From a virus: a DNA stretch of 64,000 bases. Shown piece after piece: positions 665 through 59,014 of the stretch (the first letter of the stretch is position 1; every line of letters starts with the position of its first letter). The DNA lies in the IMG/VR virus record IMGVR_UViG_3300032770_000018, positions 1-64,000 of that record, one strand, 5' to 3'. A program made the translations under genes and the position numbers. The notes beneath the pieces are model-generated. The model worked only from the letters and a program-made list of their open reading frames with translations. It made no database searches and was not told the DNA's origin.

Positions 665-855
665 TTTGACGGTGGCGAATAGGACTCCGTGACAATCCGG
701 TCAATGATATAGCCCCGCTCTAACGCCGCGCGGATTCGCTGGTCGTAGAGCACAAAGCTCGTGATAGCAAGCGCCACGAGCGCCAAGGCAATAAGCGTGA
801 TGGCAAGCCACATTGTCAGGAATCGGACGGTGTCTTCGTTCTCGGGAGTTATCAT
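661..855 (-). CDS. small membrane protein
   Basis: One long hydrophobic helix; translationally coupled at both ends. Confidence 0.6.
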   Translation of the reverse strand: MITPENEDTVRFLTMWLAITLIALALVALAITSFVLYDQRIRAALERGYIIDRIVTESYSPPSK

Positions 856-1736
856 GATGTTACTAGTTGCGCGTTAGTGCGGCTGGCGGCCAGCGCCGCC
901 GCTTTTGCCGCCGGTGAGACGTGGGCGTAGCTGCGAATTTGTTCGATGCTCTGGCCGGTCATGGAGGAAATCAGGACTGAATCAATCCCGGCGTTCAAGA
1001 GCCGGGTCACAAAGCCGTGTCTCAGTGAGTGGTAGGAGTGATTGGGCAGGCCGGCCCGTTCGCAAGCGAGGGCGAACCGCGAGGACAGCCGGGCCCGGTT
1101 GTCGCCGAACTGCCAGCACATGCCTGGAAGCACCCGCTCGCACGGCGGATTTAGCGGCACGGCGCTTAGGTGCTCGAACAGTTCCGGCTCTATCGGTATC
1201 TCCAAGCGCTGCCCACTGGCCTGGCGCTTCCGAGGGTTGACGGTAATCAGGCCGGCCGCGAGGTTTACCTGCGGCCAACTCAGGCACGCCACGTCACCCA
1301 TCCGCAGCCCCGTGTGCCAGCCAAGGCGCGTAGCCGTCGGCCAGTAGGGCTCGTATCCACCTTCCTCGCCGCGTTCCAGCTCAGCCAGGACCCGCCGATA
1401 CTCCGGTTCGGTGAACGCGACCTTCTCGGGCTTAGCCGCCTGGAGCCGAGGCAATAGCGCTCGCTGGCAGGGATTGCTTTCCATGAGCTTCCGGGCAACC
1501 GCCCAGGTGAAGAACGCGCGGAGCATGTTGACCCGCCCGTTGATCACCCCGTTGGAATTCTCGGCCATCGCTTCGCCCATGTACTCGGAGATAAGCGCCG
1601 GCGTGAGGTCCATCAACCTCACCCCACGCCGGTCGCACCAGCTTAGGAACGATTCAGCCATCGTCCTATAGGTCGCGCGTGAGGAATCGCGCAGACCGGT
1701 CTGGAAAGCAAGCCACTGGTCGAAGGTCGATCTCAC
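852..1736 (-). CDS. tyrosine recombinase (XerC/D- or integrase-like)
   Basis: N-terminal core-binding domain, then HTGLRMGD, HSLRH, TGQ and YAH motifs. Start is probably GTG at 1736, coupled to the ASCH stop. Confidence 0.9.
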   Translation of the reverse strand: MRSTFDQWLAFQTGLRDSSRATYRTMAESFLSWCDRRGVRLMDLTPALISEYMGEAMAENSNGVINGRVNMLRAFFTWAVARKLMESNPCQRALLPRLQAAKPEKVAFTEPEYRRVLAELERGEEGGYEPYWPTATRLGWHTGLRMGDVACLSWPQVNLAAGLITVNPRKRQASGQRLEIPIEPELFEHLSAVPLNPPCERVLPGMCWQFGDNRARLSSRFALACERAGLPNHSYHSLRHGFVTRLLNAGIDSVLISSMTGQSIEQIRSYAHVSPAAKAAALAASRTNAQLVTS

Positions 1737-2251
1737 GGCAGCAAAACCTTTCCGCAACAGGCACATTCGATGTGCGTCTCGGTCTCTTTGGTTTCGAGGT
1801 GGTGGCAAAGCTGCTGGCGGACGCGCTCTTCAACCTCAGACGGAAGGAAGAACAATCCCTGATGGCCAACCACAGGCACCGCCTCGGCCAGCTCCTGGCA
1901 GTCGTCAGTCATCCAGATCCACCGGCCAGCCGAATAGTCCCCCAGATCGCGTTCAGCCTGTGCCAGCGGTCGAGGGCGGCCGCACTTGACGTTAATTTGG
2001 TTGAATTCCTCGCTGGGCACGCAATCCTGGAGGATAACCACACAGAGGACCTTTCCGTAGGGCACGGTTTTGGCGGCTGCTATAAGGGCCGGGTCGTGCC
2101 CAAGCTCGGCGTCGCTCGGGCGATGCTTCGACGCGCAGATCGCCAGTTCGCCGCGATGGCTCGTTGGCCAAGACCGCGTTTCGTTCTTCTTCAGCTTCTT
2201 GGCCATAGCCGTCGCGTACGGCTGCCAAAGGCTGATTGCTCGGAGGCTCAT
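1733..2251 (-). CDS. ASCH domain protein
   Basis: ISLWQPYA...KKNETRSW...RGELAICAS...GHQGLF signature. Confidence 0.9.
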   Translation of the reverse strand: MSLRAISLWQPYATAMAKKLKKNETRSWPTSHRGELAICASKHRPSDAELGHDPALIAAAKTVPYGKVLCVVILQDCVPSEEFNQINVKCGRPRPLAQAERDLGDYSAGRWIWMTDDCQELAEAVPVVGHQGLFFLPSEVEERVRQQLCHHLETKETETHIECACCGKVLLP

Positions 2252-7160: not shown

Positions 7161-7476
7161 CGTTGATCCTTTCGTGGGGGTGGGTTAACAGGTGAGATAG
7201 CCGGTGCTGAGGTGATGCTCAATGGTGGATCCATCACCGGGGAGCACCTGCGCACCCCGGTTTTCCCAAAGTACGATTGACCGTTCATCCAGATGGTCAA
7301 TCCTGAGAAATCGTCCATCCGCGAGCCGAATTGCTGGGGCCAGCTTTCCCGATCCATCGATCTTAATGGGGTGGGAGTCATAGGTTGGGACTTGTGTTTT
7401 CATCGTCGATCCTGTCGAAAAATCCCCGCGTGAATCCGGGGAGAGTTGGTCGATGTTTCGATATTCAATTTTCACA

Positions 7477-7600
7477 GTGAGGCAAGCCTAACTCCTTATG
7501 CACATAATGCAACAACTATTTTTGTAATCGGTTTCACCCGCATAAATATTGGGTTTCTCGCACAGTTGACTCGTGCGCTAGACTCTCTGGCATGAAAGTG
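7477..7600. promoter_or_regulatory. divergent promoter region
   Basis: Minus strand TTGCAT-16-TAGGCT just upstream of the early operon; plus strand TAGACT 7 nt before ATG 7592; AT-rich. Confidence 0.6.
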
Positions 7601-7957
7601 TTCGGCCGTGATGCCTACTCGCTCGCTGTGATGCGGGCCATCAACGGCCGGCTTACCAAGATCGAACACAACCAAAGGAAAATTATGGACGCCATCCAAA
7701 GCGCGGCCGCGGCCGAACAGGCGAACACCGACGCGGTCAAAGCCGCGCTCACGAACATCAGCACGGGGATCACCGGGCTGCAAACCACCATCACCAGCCT
7801 CCAGGCCCAGATTGCGGCCCTCCAATCGGGAGGCAGCCTGAGCGCCGATGACCAGACGGCCGTTGACGCCATGCTCGCCGACAGCCAATCCGCGGTGACC
7901 CAGGTCCAGCAGATTGCCGCGGCTCTGACGCCCACGCCAGCGCCGGCCAAGAGCTGA
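7592..7957 (+). CDS. coiled-coil protein (Ala/Gln/Thr-rich heptads)
   Basis: Heptad repeat; leaderless promoter upstream and hairpin downstream. Confidence 0.75.
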   Translation: MKVFGRDAYSLAVMRAINGRLTKIEHNQRKIMDAIQSAAAAEQANTDAVKAALTNISTGITGLQTTITSLQAQIAALQSGGSLSADDQTAVDAMLADSQSAVTQVQQIAAALTPTPAPAKS

Positions 7958-7979
7958 GCCGAGCCCAAAAGCCCCCAAA

Positions 7980-8018
7980 GGCCGGAAATTGCGCAAAATC
8001 GCAGTTTCCGGCCATTTT
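7980..8018 (+). terminator. probable intrinsic terminator
   Basis: GGCCGGAAATTGCG-loop-CGCAGTTTCCGGCC followed by ATTTT. Confidence 0.5.
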
Positions 8019-8095
8019 CGTGAATTTACCCCCTCCAGAATGGCCCAGGACGCGTTTTGATCGCGCCGTCCGCTGTGTTGATGTGGGGGTAAAAT

Positions 8096-8295
8096 GCCGT
8101 TTGGCTTCCGTAATCGTACGGAATTGACGGCCAGCGGAATCGGTGTAGAACCGACAACATGAAGTTGCGTTGCGAGCGCTGGCGTGGAATGGTGGCAGTG
8201 ACTTTCGGCCATCCCACGCCGAATACATCCGCAGGTCGAGTCATTCTCCGCCTGCAATCCCGGCCATGCTCGCAACATGGCCGGAGCTTTTTCTT
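8096..8295 (+). ncRNA. candidate pseudoknotted non-coding RNA (RNA-2a)
   Basis: Six or more hairpins, two loop-mediated complementarities, final GC hairpin with T-tract. Confidence 0.65.
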
Positions 8296-8329
8296 CCGTG
8301 TAATCTCCCAAACAAATGCCGTCCTCCGA

Positions 8330-8560
8330 AGCTGGTCACCCCGAAGGCTTGAGTGCCTGGGCGTGGACACCCGGATCGGCAGGCCAAGCCCGGCGGTGAG
8401 CCGACAAGCAGGCCATTGCACCCCGGGAGAACGGTCAACGGAAATGTAGATCGCTCGAGCTCCGTGGCTGGCTTAACCGGCTGGTCATGACCAAAGGACT
8501 CTCGAGCACGCGGCGCGGACGCCCTCCGGAAACCGCCGCGGCGACCTGATAGGGGTGCGT
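8330..8560 (+). ncRNA. candidate structured non-coding RNA (RNA-2b, possibly continuous with 2a)
   Basis: Nested stems TCACC/GGTGA, GGCTTG/CAAGCC, GCACCCC/GGGGTGC, GCTCGAG/CTCGAGC, CGCGGCG/CGCCGCG. Confidence 0.5.
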
Positions 8561-8961
8561 CATGCCCAAATCCATTCGTGCCCAGATCCGAAAGCCATCA
8601 AGCCGGGAGCATTAACCACTCGCGCGCAAAAACGTCCAGTTCCAAGACAGCCAAACCGATGAATGATTGAATGATGCCCGGACCAAAGTTGCTCGTCTCG
8701 TTCTCAAAACTGCGAAAATCGGCGTTTCCGTTCGCAGAAGTGAGAACCGGCCAGCACAAAATACCCTATTTTGTCCGACTTTCCAAGATTCGCTCGACAG
8801 GTCAGCGGTTTGCGCTTCCTCGACCAGCGATTTCGAGCCCAGGCCGGCCGCCTGGTGGAGGATTCCACCCTCCCGGTGGTTGGGGCGGGACCGCCCGGCC
8901 ATGCCCGGCCAGCCGTCGCAGGTCACCCTGCTGGACTCAAAGCGATTCATGGGTTCACCTT

Positions 8962-9300
8962 TCAGATTTTTTGAGGCTCTGGAGGGCGGGTTTTGCTGGC
9001 TGCTGGACGGGTTGGAGATTTTTTGAATGGGTTATTGGGCTGATTTGCGGCGTACAGGTTGGCGTCTGCCGGGCATGGGGTAGTGAATCCGTCGCGCAGG
9101 ACGTGGCCAACGACCGAGACCTTTCCTCGGGTGCGGAGGTTGCAGAGGTGGGCGCTGGCGCGGCGGCGGCTGGCGTAGAGTGATAGCTTTGGCCAGAGGA
9201 TGGCGCCAATCTCAGGGGCGGTGGCTGGTGAGTCGGCGAGGAGCCTGAGGATTCGGCAGGTGATGGTCACCGCTGTTGGGCTTGTAACTCGTGGAACAAT
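8962..9300 (-). CDS. putative winged-HTH protein (start uncertain)
   Basis: RILRLLADSPATAPEIGAIL...ASAHLCNLRTRGKV. Confidence 0.5.
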   Translation of the reverse strand: MVPRVTSPTAVTITCRILRLLADSPATAPEIGAILWPKLSLYASRRRASAHLCNLRTRGKVSVVGHVLRDGFTTPCPADANLYAANQPNNPFKKSPTRPAASKTRPPEPQKI

Positions 9301-9430
9301 TCGGTGTGGAGGCGCCGGCGTGAGCGTTCCTGTCGGGCGTGGCAGTCCCGGCAGGTGCGCTGGCCTGGGCGGGCGGGCAGGCCGCAACGGCAGTTGGTGT
9401 GGCCGATGGGCGGTGGTGCCGGCTGGGGAT

Positions 9431-9922
9431 TCACAGTTCGAACGGCAGGAGGGTCTTGGGGGAGCCGTAGATTAGAGCGCAGCCAGCGCAGAGCTTGCGG
9501 CCGTTGGGGATTGGCTTGTGGCGGAGGGCTTCCTGCCAGACAGCGGGGTTGCGGCAGTAGGAGACCGAGCAGCGGATGACGATCCTGCGGCTGGGGATAG
9601 CCAGCATCTTCGGGTCCGGGTCCACGTCGTACCAGTGCAGGAACCACTCATTGCGCCGGCGCGACCTCCACATCTTGCCGAGATAAGTGCCGGTCGGGAT
9701 GCTCGCCGAATACTCGGCAAGCCGCTCGAAGTCGGCGAAGGTCATGCTGGCCTCCCTCGGGCTGAGCAGGATCCTTTCCAGGGCAGGCTGCTCCCAATGA
9801 GCGCACAGCGGGTCAGTCATTGGCGGGATGATGGTATCCGCCGGGCCGGTGCCGCGGAAGATGACATCGAAGTTCTCGGCGTAGGCGCGGCGGTTGGTGA
9901 CTCGGGATTGGGTGTCGTTCAT
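9431..9922 (-). CDS. hypothetical phage protein with C-terminal Zn finger
   Basis: LAEYSASIPTGTYLGKMW motif; CxxxxC...CxxC. Confidence 0.65.
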   Translation of the reverse strand: MNDTQSRVTNRRAYAENFDVIFRGTGPADTIIPPMTDPLCAHWEQPALERILLSPREASMTFADFERLAEYSASIPTGTYLGKMWRSRRRNEWFLHWYDVDPDPKMLAIPSRRIVIRCSVSYCRNPAVWQEALRHKPIPNGRKLCAGCALIYGSPKTLLPFEL

Positions 9923-40927: not shown

Positions 40928-40962
40928 GGCGCCCCGGCGAAAGTCGGGGCGCCTGCTTTTTT
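40928..40962 (+). terminator. rho-independent terminator
   Basis: GGCGCCCCGGC-GAAA-GTCGGGGCGCC followed by TGCTTTTTT. Confidence 0.9.
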
Positions 40963-57916: not shown

Positions 57917-59014
57917 ATGGCGTACGGCAGCGATTTTTCAGCCGCTCAGTCGGCGGCACTTCAGGAAAGGGGATTGGCCCAGTCCCAGGCGCAGTTCGAC
58001 GAGAGCGAGATGCAGAGGGCGCTCCAGTTTGCAACCCAGGCGGGTGCGGCTCAGCGCCAGTTCCAATACCTGAGGGATGTGGTAAACCCCACAGAGTGGG
58101 CGATGCGTGGCCGGCAGTTGGACATTGAGCAGGCCCGCGCGGACAGGGCCCTGAGCATCGAGCAGCGCCGGGCCGACACCGCCCAAGGCTATCTCGACAT
58201 CTACAAGAAGCAGATGGACACCGCTGCCGCCCAGGGCACGCCCGCGCAGATTAAAGACCACGAGTTTGCTTTTGTGGCTGCCGCTCAGGACGCCGAGCGC
58301 GGAATGTTCGACTCCCCACAGCACGTCTCCCAGCTTTACCCCGCACTCTCGCCAGCCGAGGCCAACCTGATGTATCAGCGCAGCGCGGCGGTGCGGCCAA
58401 GCGTCGAGGCGCAATACCGGACGGCGGAGAACGCGCGGTCGCTCCTCAACGCCTACGATGCGACGAACATGCAGTTGCTGCCGAATTACGTGGACCCGAC
58501 CGGGCGCCCAACCATCGCACCCGTCCACTGGTTTGACAGCCAACAGACAGTGGCCCAGAAGCAGCAGCACAATGCGGCGTTGCTGATGCGAAATCGCCTG
58601 GACCAGACAGGCATCATTCCGAATCTGCGAAAGAGTCCGCTACTGAGCTACGACGCGGAGAGCGGGCAGTGGCAGAACAACGTTCCTCAGCCGCGCTGGT
58701 TTCCGACGGGCGGTACTCCAACACCCACCGGGCCATCCACTGAGGCACCGATGGGCTGGCAGCCCACGACTGGCGGTGGCTGGTTAAAGCCAGTCCTGCC
58801 GGCCGGACCGCCCGCGCCTTCTCCGGGCCGTAACATCACCTATATCTCTCCGCCGCAGGTTCCGGGGTCGTCCGGCATGGGCAATCCGATGACCCAGCGG
58901 AAGTACACGCCTTTTGTCTATAACCGCGTGAACGAGCTGGTGAATCGTATGGGAATGGACCCGTCGGCAGCACTCAGGCAGGCTCAGGCCGAGGACCAGG
59001 CACTCTCTCAGTAA
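57917..59014 (+). CDS. internal virion/ejection protein
   Basis: Q/A-rich helical N-terminus; position. Confidence 0.6.
   Translation: MAYGSDFSAAQSAALQERGLAQSQAQFDESEMQRALQFATQAGAAQRQFQYLRDVVNPTEWAMRGRQLDIEQARADRALSIEQRRADTAQGYLDIYKKQMDTAAAQGTPAQIKDHEFAFVAAAQDAERGMFDSPQHVSQLYPALSPAEANLMYQRSAAVRPSVEAQYRTAENARSLLNAYDATNMQLLPNYVDPTGRPTIAPVHWFDSQQTVAQKQQHNAALLMRNRLDQTGIIPNLRKSPLLSYDAESGQWQNNVPQPRWFPTGGTPTPTGPSTEAPMGWQPTTGGGWLKPVLPAGPPAPSPGRNITYISPPQVPGSSGMGNPMTQRKYTPFVYNRVNELVNRMGMDPSAALRQAQAEDQALSQ

What the first reader, a model, noticed from the sequence alone, without database searches (positions are those of the whole stretch)
8096..8295. Compact ~200-nt RNA candidate with two loop-mediated long-range pairings and a terminator-like end
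Seen in the sequence: hairpins TTCCGTA/TACGGAA (8106-23), TCGGT/ACCGA, CAAC/GTTG, GGCGTGG/CCACGCC (8181-8220), GCAGG/CCTGC (8231-55) and CCGGCCATG/CATGGCCGG (8260-84) followed by a T-tract. The last loop region GCTCGCAAC (8268-76) is the exact 9-nt complement of GTTGCGAGC (8169-77). AGTGACT (8197-8203) can pair with AGTCATT (8239-45) as a kissing loop. A TAAAAT lies at 8090-95 and there is no credible ORF. Inference: a tertiary-structured phage ncRNA (ribozyme, packaging/scaffold RNA, decoy or switch) that I cannot assign to a known family.
Basis: partly seen in the sequence, partly recalled or inferred. Interest (0 to 1): 0.85.

Follow-up and report, generated by a model that had tools for sequence, protein, structure and literature searches.

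The report
Orphan structured small RNA candidate, temperate phage
A short, non-coding, unusually hairpin-rich stretch in an uncultured wetland phage looks like a small RNA gene of about 135 bases with its own promoter and terminator, but it has no relatives and no expression data, so this cannot be proven and its function is unknown.

Summary
The region is not ordinary. It holds 6 perfect inverted repeats of at least 7 bp, against 1.2 in shuffles. Four of the genome's 62 perfect repeats of at least 9 bp lie within 305 nt here. Fold z-scores run from -3.8 to -4.2. No reading frame looks coding, and no Rfam family matches.

The boundaries need changing. The TAAAAT at 8090-95 lies inside a 9-bp helix and has no -35 box. 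A better promoter sits at 8124-8151 (TTGACG-16-TAGAAC) and fits this phage's own recurring promoter pattern. It puts the start near 8159. That gives an RNA of about 135 nt (8158-8293) ending at a terminator built like the one after the capsid gene.

The 9-nt match between the 5' region and the terminator loop is real. It cannot form fully alongside the terminator stem. The "kissing loop" is weak.

The phage is temperate (it has an integrase), and this locus is an orphan. I found no homologue, variant or RNA run, so covariation and transcription remain untested. It is best filed as a probable phage small RNA of unknown function. Nothing supports a ribozyme or packaging role.

The parts
7592..7957 (+). 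Upstream plus-strand gene of 121 aa (coiled-coil, moron-like). It is the only well-coding plus-strand gene between two minus-strand operons.
   Evidence: Best codon score in the neighbourhood. Pfam and PHROGs give only weak coiled-coil or tail hits. It resembles clusters of small hypothetical viral proteins in the ESM Atlas. No sequence relatives.
7980..8013 (+). Terminator T1: a 14-bp stem with a 6-nt loop, followed by ATTTTCG. An A-tract lies upstream, so it may work in both directions.
   Evidence: pairing probability 0.99.
8025..8093 (+). Hairpin or inverted repeat closed by a perfect 9-bp helix, TTTACCCCC/GGGGGTAAA.
   Evidence: probability 0.95. It could be RNA in transcripts that read through T1, or a DNA-level element of the regulatory region.
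8106..8123 (.). Palindrome of 18 bp, TTCCGTA-N4-TACGGAA, directly upstream of the -35 box. It is centred about -44.5 from the proposed start.
   Evidence: The operator or activator-site reading is inference.
8124..8151 (+). Proposed promoter: -35 TTGACG (8124-8129), a 16-nt spacer, and -10 TAGAAC (8146-8151).
   Evidence: It fits the phage's recurring promoter pattern. TTGnnn-N16-18-TAnnnn-N8-10-TGAA occurs 12 times against 1.5 expected. TTGACn-N16-18-TAnnnn-N5-7-ATG occurs twice against 0.28 expected; the other case is a real gene start.
8140..8154 (.). Palindrome TCGGT-N5-ACCGA overlapping the -10 box.
   Evidence: The operator reading is inference.
8158..8293 (+). Proposed small RNA of about 135 nt. 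A closing helix (8161-8166 with 8285-8290) encloses four hairpins.
   Evidence: MFE -61.0 kcal/mol, z -4.16, 0 of 200 shuffles. Helix probabilities are 0.86-0.99. No coding signal.
8167..8179 (+). Mini-hairpin near the 5' end. It holds GTTGCGAGC (8169-8177), the exact complement of the terminator loop.
   Evidence: probability about 0.9; the 9-bp duplex is -14.8 kcal/mol.
8180..8221 (+). Central hairpin with an outer stem of 7-8 bp (GGCGTGG/CCACGCC), an A.C mismatch and a 5-bp inner stem. The loop carries CAGTGAC.
8231..8255 (+). Hairpin GCAGGU/GCCUGC plus GAG/CUC, with loop UCAUU.
   Evidence: probability 0.99.
8260..8293 (+). Terminator T2: a 9-bp stem (7 G-C pairs), the 7-nt loop CTCGCAA, then AGC and TTTTTCTT.
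   Evidence: It has the same layout (stem, NGC, T-run) as the terminator after the capsid gene at 40928-40953. The minus strand has no T-run. Only a few hairpins this strong exist in 60 kb.

Best explanation
This is a compact plus-strand transcription unit for a small non-coding RNA in a temperate phage. A sigma-70-type promoter of the phage's own style (TTGACG-16-TAGAAC, 8124-8151) starts transcription near 8158-8160. The intrinsic terminator T2 (8260-8284 plus a U-run) ends it near 8291-8293. The product is an RNA of about 135 nt made of a 5'-proximal mini-hairpin, a long central hairpin, a short hairpin and the terminator hairpin.

The two palindromes just upstream (8106-8123 next to the -35 box, 8140-8154 over the -10 box) are more likely DNA sites that regulate this promoter than parts of the RNA.

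The unit lies directly after a moron-like gene with its own terminator. It sits between the two leftward early operons, so it would be free to be expressed from the prophage.

The most likely mode of action is base-pairing regulation of a phage or host RNA. The 9-nt 5' segment (8169-8177) is either a seed or a self-masking element that competes with the RNA's own terminator loop.

Shown: the sequence features, the excess of structure, the absence of coding signal, the fit to the promoter pattern and the terminator layout. Inferred: transcription, the ends of the RNA, and any function.
For: Structure. z is -4.16 for 8158-8293 and -3.8 for 8096-8295 and for 8014-8295. The excess of inverted repeats is clear against shuffles and against the rest of the genome. 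The region downstream (8300-8600) is not structured (z -1.1 and +0.2), so the signal stops at T2.

Terminator. T2 is one of very few strong terminator-like hairpins in 60 kb. It shares its layout with the terminator after the capsid gene, and its T-run is on the plus strand only.

Promoter. The 8124 site matches the pattern of the phage's recognisable promoters. Composite patterns are enriched 8-fold or more over random genomes (12 against 1.5; 8 against 0.49; 2 against 0.28, P = 0.025). The other hits mostly sit at gene starts.

Non-coding. Six-frame translations look random. ORF 8159-8449 scores -0.07 per codon with flat GC at the three codon positions, against +0.10 to +0.26 for the seven plus-strand ORFs at sites of the same pattern. 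HMMER against 1.8 billion proteins gave only two marginal low-complexity hits.

Lifestyle and context. A tyrosine integrase lies at 852-1808. The unit follows a gene-plus-terminator cassette. Prophage sRNAs encoded just 3' of moron genes are documented in EHEC, as is an sRNA 5' end pairing with a terminator loop (AsxR-FnrS) (PMC4104026, read).
Against: There is no expression evidence. The only run holding this DNA is the source DNA metagenome.

There is no homologue, so there is no covariation test. Both strands fold about equally well, so the thermodynamics do not choose a strand. In a GC-corrected genome-wide ranking the window is only 6th of 1277.

I recognised the promoter pattern after looking at this site, and one composite pattern was shaped with it in view. 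About 13 bare TTGACn-TAnnnn matches are expected by chance per genome.

The proposed start coincides with an ATG. By this phage's leaderless pattern that would invite translation of an ORF with no stop before T2.

No target was found. Complementarity of at least 11 nt to the phage genome is no higher than for control windows.
Confidence: 0.45

Rival explanations
1. The region is a structured 3' extension of the upstream gene's mRNA. Transcripts from the promoter of gene 7592-7957 partly read through T1 and stop at T2 (tandem terminators). The 280-nt interval is then a 3'-UTR, possibly processed into a 3'-derived sRNA. There would be no separate promoter.
For: The whole T1-T2 interval folds (z -3.83), including domain I (z -2.69). 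A helix joining 7967-7972 to the T2 U-run is predicted with probability 0.91. T1 has only a 4-U run, so it may leak. A perfect 12-nt complementarity links the end of the coding sequence (7932-7943) to 8176-8187 at -26 kcal/mol. The strict consensus scan finds no promoter in the interval.
Against: T1 is the strongest hairpin in the window (14 bp). The 8124 site fits the phage's promoter pattern. The two readings do not exclude each other.
Confidence: 0.2
2. The region is a cis-acting attenuator or switch. The leader from 8159 folds either into T2 or into a long-range helix (8169-8178 with 8267-8276, plus 8128-8133 with 8279-8284) that removes T2. Translation of the leaderless ORF starting at the 5'-terminal AUG might drive the choice. 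Read-through RNA would run antisense into the convergent minus-strand genes.
For: The 9-nt exact complement covers the T2 loop and its closing pair. The best fold without T2 is only 2.9 kcal/mol worse. The ATG at 8159 sits 7 nt after the -10 box, exactly as at this phage's leaderless genes. By my reasoning, a 9-bp helix in a loop with no linkers cannot form fully alongside the stem.
Against: A difference of 2.9 kcal/mol is reached by 14.5% of shuffled upstream sequences. No credible gene lies downstream on the plus strand. 8300-8600 is unstructured. No known riboswitch or leader family matches.
Confidence: 0.1
3. The region is a DNA-level element. The cluster of inverted repeats would be protein-binding or recombination DNA (operators of an immunity region, attP arms or an origin), not an RNA.
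For: Both strands fold equally well, as expected for plain inverted repeats. The phage is temperate. Two short palindromes flank the -35 and -10 boxes. A possible winged-helix gene lies at 8965-9267 on the minus strand (a lead only).
Against: The repeats all differ in sequence, so they are not a set of sites for one protein. Several span 70-110 nt, which suits RNA folding better than protein binding. T1 and T2 carry plus-strand T-runs. The integrase gene is 6 kb away. There are no iterons or AT-rich tract.
Confidence: 0.1
4. The region is a chance accumulation of hairpins in GC-rich spacer DNA next to a real terminator, with no function of its own.
For: The genome-wide GC-corrected rank (6th of 1277, z -2.7) lies within the normal tail. 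The feature was picked by eye from 64 kb. It is an orphan with no conservation evidence. The kissing loop and the switch energetics are at chance level.
Against: 0 of 1000 shuffles reach the inverted-repeat count. Four of the 62 genome-wide repeats of at least 9 bp fall within 305 nt. Promoter, structure and terminator line up in the right order and spacing.
Confidence: 0.1
5. The region holds a leaderless protein-coding gene (ORF 8159-8449, 96 aa), and the hairpins are incidental.
For: The promoter-to-ATG spacing is identical to that of real leaderless genes in this phage.
Against: The codon score is negative and GC is flat across codon positions. The sequence looks random and is Arg/Ser/Pro-rich. 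There is no Pfam hit and no real relatives among 1.8 billion proteins. A strong terminator lies inside the frame.
Confidence: 0.05

Closest known systems
Prophage-encoded base-pairing sRNAs next to moron genes (EHEC AsxR/AgvB group; Tree et al. 2014, PMC4104026)
   Same: A short non-coding unit encoded just 3' of a moron-type gene in a temperate phage and ending in a Rho-independent terminator. In that system an sRNA 5' region pairs with the single-stranded loop of a terminator hairpin (AsxR with FnrS). This is the same kind of contact as the 9-nt match here.
   Different: Those RNAs are 51-60 nt, belong to a conserved family in lambdoid prophages and are shown to bind Hfq. This candidate is about 135 nt, much more structured, has no sequence relation to them, and its complementarity is to its own terminator loop. 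Expression, Hfq binding and targets are all untested here.
Phage immunity and antisense RNAs that act through complementary boxes (P1/P7 c4, P4 CI RNA; Rfam C4, RF01695) - from my own knowledge
   Same: Small structured RNAs of temperate phages in a regulatory region, whose loops pair with complementary boxes on the same or a neighbouring transcript to control termination or translation.
   Different: No match to the Rfam model at E up to 10. No repeated target boxes were found. There is no evidence of processing.
Short promoter-proximal terminated transcripts of lambdoid phages (lambda 6S RNA from pR' to tR', OOP RNA) - from my own knowledge
   Same: A discrete RNA of 80-200 nt defined by a constitutive promoter and a nearby intrinsic terminator in a temperate phage.
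   Different: The lambda 6S unit precedes the late genes and is read through under Q antitermination. Here no gene follows T2. OOP is antisense to cII. Here the RNA overlaps no gene.
3'-UTR-derived sRNAs (review PMC9438474, title and abstract seen)
   Same: A structured RNA sharing a terminator region with an upstream mRNA.
   Different: That class needs either processing from the mRNA or an internal promoter. Here a separate strong terminator (T1) lies between the coding sequence and the RNA.

Membership tests
Any Rfam 15 family (including riboswitches, self-cleaving ribozymes, phi29 pRNA, C4/CI, GOLLD/ROOL, 6S, tmRNA) | Covariance-model score at or above the family's gathering threshold | tested here: not met
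   The whole window gave 0 matches at gathering score. 7900-8750 at E up to 10 gave only two irrelevant hits of 15-17 bits against thresholds of 79-80. ARAGORN found no tRNA or tmRNA here.
Intrinsic (Rho-independent) terminator | G+C-rich stem-loop followed closely by a U-run on the transcribed strand | tested here: met
   T2 has 9 bp (7 G-C pairs) and a 7-nt loop, then AGC and TTTTTCTT, on the plus strand only. The terminator after the capsid gene has the same layout.
Intrinsic (Rho-independent) terminator | Transcripts actually end there | not testable with these tools
   No RNA run holds this DNA.
Stand-alone bacterial or phage sRNA gene | Own promoter upstream of a non-coding stretch of 50-300 nt | tested here: inconclusive
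   A strict sigma-70 consensus scan found nothing. The site at 8124-8151 fits the phage's own promoter pattern, which is enriched over chance. The start has not been mapped.
Stand-alone bacterial or phage sRNA gene | No protein-coding capacity | tested here: met
Stand-alone bacterial or phage sRNA gene | Expression as a discrete RNA, and conservation with compensatory changes | not testable with these tools
   There is no RNA run. No homologue turned up in the phage collection, IMG/VR, five related phage records by blastn and covariance model, metagenome contigs or 401 genomes. The source sample holds no variants.
Riboswitch or transcription attenuator | Mutually exclusive terminator and antiterminator folds that are closer in energy than chance gives | tested here: inconclusive
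   An alternative fold exists at +2.9 kcal/mol, but 14.5% of shuffles do as well.
Riboswitch or transcription attenuator | A regulated gene directly downstream on the same strand | tested here: not met
   No ORF with coding signal lies between 8296 and 8960 on the plus strand. The gene-caller's ORF 8671-9183 has no relatives and a negative codon score.
   No Rfam ribozyme or pRNA match. The locus lies in the early/regulatory region about 30 kb from the capsid gene. Activity itself cannot be tested here.

The most novel reading that the evidence does not exclude
The 135-nt RNA is the first member of a new class of phage regulatory RNA. In this class a 5'-proximal segment and the RNA's own terminator loop form a 9-bp contact that toggles the RNA between a closed, self-masked state and an open or multimerising state. 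This could happen within one molecule or between copies. Palindromic operators at its promoter would tie the RNA to the lysis-lysogeny decision.
Probability: 0.12. Interest if true: 0.6.

Novelty: new member of a known kind. Interest (0 to 1): 0.32.

Why it matters
If it is transcribed, this would be a structured regulatory RNA from a phage lineage with no cultured relatives. The capsid protein has no match in 50,697 phage records. The RNA sits between the two early operons of a temperate phage, where small RNAs can influence immunity or host physiology. Its self-complementary 5' segment and terminator loop would be a simple, testable case of an sRNA that masks its own seed or destabilises its own terminator. 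As it stands, it is one orphan candidate without expression or conservation evidence, so its value is that of a lead. The promoter pattern worked out along the way should help anyone annotating this group of phages. That pattern is TTGACn-N16-18-TAnnnn followed by either a CAGTGAA-type leader or a leaderless ATG.

Tried and rejected
Homologue searches, all empty:
- blastn of 7960-8670 against 50,697 phage records.
- Flanking proteins in IMG/VR and in the 5.8-billion-protein index, which returned only the proteins themselves.
- An exact scan for the terminator hairpin in IMG/VR.
- A scan for the pair of 9-mers in metagenome contigs. It gave 120 hits, all chance, because the pattern is its own reverse complement and none aligns to the locus.
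- Five related phage records (capsid 63-72% identical) by blastn and by a single-sequence covariance model of 8161-8295. Nothing was found, and the left 12 kb of this phage is not shared with its complete relative.
- 401 genomes of the class of the one MAG that carries a related capsid gene gave only short chance matches. The best (38 nt, 84%) lies in what reads as a signal-peptide-coding sequence (my own translation), and I judged it coincidental.

Other checks that led nowhere:
- No paralogue in the phage itself.
- The one distant relative of the 121-aa protein (L002) sits in dense coding DNA with no comparable downstream element.
- Sequencing runs: no RNA holder is listed. The single DNA run is the probable source, and laying it showed one contig at about 58x with no variants.
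- Target search: complementarity of at least 11 nt to the phage genome is no higher than for control windows.
- Half-sites and motif copies are not enriched.
- The cumulative GC skew gives no origin signal at the locus.
- My first hard-constraint version of the terminator-removal test was wrong, because it blocked all pairing of those bases. I redid it with soft constraints.
- The second structured domain proposed at 8330-8560 is not supported (z -1.1 and +0.2).

Full report
Setting. The window is bases 1-64000 of a 78,136-bp IMG/VR virus record. Its 127-bp terminal repeat looks like the overlap of a circular assembly. The only public run holding the locus is a wetland DNA metagenome, probably the source. 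The phage carries a tyrosine integrase at 852-1808 on the minus strand, so it is temperate. It has DnaB, a recombination nuclease, methylases and other replication genes on the minus strand from about 23.7 kb down to 9431. A second minus-strand block of small genes runs from about 7475 down towards the integrase. Between these two leftward blocks lies a single well-coding plus-strand gene (7592-7957, 121 aa, coiled-coil) followed by about 1 kb without any convincing reading frame. The finding sits there.

Observation. The 200-nt stretch folds to -85.3 kcal/mol, z -3.80, and no shuffle folds as well. The reverse strand is nearly as good (z -3.60). It holds six perfect inverted repeats of at least 7 bp against 1.17 in shuffles, and 0 of 1000 shuffles reach six. 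Genome-wide there are 62 perfect repeats of at least 9 bp with span up to 160 nt. Four of them fall in the 305 nt from 7980 to 8284; I estimate 0.24 expected. A more sober control is MFE regressed on G+C over all 1277 windows. It ranks the 8101 window 6th (z -2.7), which is within the normal tail. The region is therefore unusual mainly for its density of exact repeats, not for raw stability.

Known families. Rfam 15 gives nothing at gathering score for the window and nothing meaningful at E up to 10 for 7900-8750. ARAGORN finds no tRNA or tmRNA here.

Boundaries. Two of the few strong terminator-like hairpins in 60 kb lie 250 nt apart on the plus strand. T1 (7980-8013) has 14 bp followed by ATTTTCG. 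T2 (8260-8284) has 9 bp followed by AGC and TTTTTCTT. T2 is built like the terminator after the capsid gene at 40928-40953, a stem followed by TGC and TTTTTT. Folding the whole T1-T2 interval gives z -3.83 and two multibranch domains. Domain I (8016-8164) has z -2.69, and domain II (8158-8293) has z -4.16. DNA beyond T2 (8300-8600) is not structured.

Promoter. Earlier notes of this scan pointed to a recurring heptad motif at the starts of transcription units and to a leaderless architecture. I checked both. Five of the eight heptad sites share TTGnnn (three of them TTGACn)-N16-18-TAnnnn-N6-7-CAGTGAA. Several good genes, including the 4616-codon giant ORF, start with an ATG 5-7 nt after such a -10 box. 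The site TTGACG(8124)-N16-TAGAAC(8146)-N7-ATG(8159)AAG fits both forms. The pattern TTGnnn-N16-18-TAnnnn-N8-10-TGAA occurs 12 times against 1.5 in random genomes. A tighter pattern occurs 8 times against 0.49. TTGACn-...-TAnnnn-N5-7-ATG occurs twice against 0.28 (P = 0.025), and the other instance is the start of gene 57917-59014. I noticed this site first and shaped one of the patterns with it in view, so these numbers overstate the case somewhat. About 13 bare TTGACn-TAnnnn matches are expected by chance. Even so, a start near 8159 coincides with the 5' edge of domain II. That last step is inference.

Coding. An ATG at the start site would make a leaderless message by this phage's own pattern. 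However, ORF 8159-8449 scores -0.07 per codon with flat GC across codon positions. The seven plus-strand ORFs at sites of the same pattern score +0.10 to +0.26. Its translation looks random and Pfam finds nothing. HMMER against 1.84 billion representatives returns only two marginal hits to long repetitive proteins. T2 also lies inside the frame. I treat it as non-coding.

The long-range pairings. The 9-nt match (8169-8177 with 8268-8276) gives a duplex of -14.8 kcal/mol. It covers the whole 7-nt terminator loop plus the closing pair with no linker. By my steric reasoning the full helix cannot coexist with the terminator stem. At most about 7 loop bases could pair in a kissing-type contact. Otherwise the two pairings are alternatives. 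The best fold without T2 is only 2.9 kcal/mol worse than the MFE, but 14.5% of shuffled upstream sequences do as well. A designed switch is therefore not demonstrated. I estimate the chance that a given loop finds an exact 9-mer partner within about 165 upstream bases at about 1e-3. That is suggestive, given how many hairpins a reader of 64 kb sees, but not decisive. The kissing loop (8197-8203 with 8239-8245) is 6-7 bp with a G.U pair at -5.8 kcal/mol, which is at chance level. A perfect 12-nt complementarity between the end of the upstream coding sequence (7932-7943) and 8176-8187 (-26 kcal/mol) is notable. However, complementarity of the region to the whole phage genome is no higher than for control windows.

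Comparative evidence. There is none. The flanking proteins have no relatives. Related phages exist (capsid 63-73% identical), but their left arms are unrelated. Neither blastn nor a covariance model finds the element in them. The source sample holds a single variant-free contig. Pattern scans gave only chance hits, as did 401 genomes. The two tests that would settle the matter, covariation and a plus-strand transcript, could therefore not be done.

Verdict. The most economical reading (about 45%) is a small, highly structured, non-coding RNA gene of about 135 nt (8158-8293). It would have a phage-type promoter, perhaps regulated through two palindromes, and would end at T2, directly after a moron-like cassette in a temperate phage. 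That is the setting in which prophage sRNAs have been described (PMC4104026). The rivals are:
- read-through or a 3'-UTR-derived RNA from the upstream gene (20%);
- an attenuator coupled to the leaderless AUG (10%);
- a purely DNA-level cluster of repeats (10%);
- chance (10%);
- a real leaderless small protein (5%).
Nothing supports a ribozyme, packaging or decoy function. I score it as a plausible new member of a known kind with modest interest. It could rise if the contact between the 5' segment and the terminator loop proves functional.

Noticed in passing
window 5187, 7512, 16698, 23780 (minus strand); 56089, 23796 (plus strand): A recurring promoter pattern, TTGnnn (often TTGACn)-N16-18-TAnnnn-N6-7-CAGTGAA(A/C)nGTGAA, lies directly before gene starts with almost no leader. 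The composite pattern occurs 8 times against 0.49 in random genomes. The tandem heptads may be an operator or a translation signal that replaces a Shine-Dalgarno site.
   Followed up: partly
window 25616/25652, 34289/34325, 41842/41876, 49015/49051, 55026/55060, 57881/57917, 59027/59061: Leaderless architecture: the ATG of well-coding genes, including the 4616-codon giant ORF, lies 5-7 nt after a TAnnnn -10 box, with TTG 34-37 nt upstream and no Shine-Dalgarno site.
   Followed up: partly
window 8965-9267 (-): A minus-strand ORF of about 100 aa was not called by the source annotation. By eye its middle reads like a winged helix-turn-helix (ILRLLADSPATAPEIGAIL...). Pfam gives PF0610-like_N at E 0.27, and the Atlas gives a MarR_2 cluster at 0.88. 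No homologues were found, so this is only a lead. The gene-caller's overlapping plus-strand ORF 8671-9183 has a negative codon score and no relatives, and is probably spurious.
   Followed up: partly
window 8900-9500 (-): The minus strand downstream of gene 9431-9922 is strongly C-rich and G-poor (GC skew about +0.3 on the plus strand). It is the least structured stretch in the neighbourhood (z +3 to +4). It resembles a Rho-utilisation site at the end of the replication operon.
   Followed up: no
window 7418-7442 (-): A terminator-like hairpin with TTTTT lies about 35-55 nt after the proposed start of the leftward early operon (promoter 7512, heptads 7477-7457) and before its first ATG. It may be a promoter-proximal terminator that needs antitermination.
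   Followed up: no
window 852-1808 (-): A tyrosine integrase (PF00589, 42.7 bits) shows the phage is temperate. No obvious non-coding attP stretch lies directly beside it.
   Followed up: no
genome ends (G000 1-127 and 78010-78136): The 'direct terminal repeat' is exactly 127 bp, which is typical of a k-mer overlap from a circular assembly rather than a true terminal repeat.
   Followed up: no
whole genome: GCGCTGGCG occurs 9 times on the plus strand and 3 on the minus strand against about 1 expected per strand. Copies lie at 8176 and 9152 on the plus strand, and the reverse complement lies at 7935. The over-representation is unexplained.
   Followed up: no
L155 / G006: The only genome contig with a related capsid gene is a 6-kb contig of a MAG labelled uncultured Gammaproteobacteria. 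The 401 genomes drawn from its class are all listed at 0.7-1.3 Mb, so either the class has small genomes or the contig is mis-binned. The host remains unknown.
   Followed up: no
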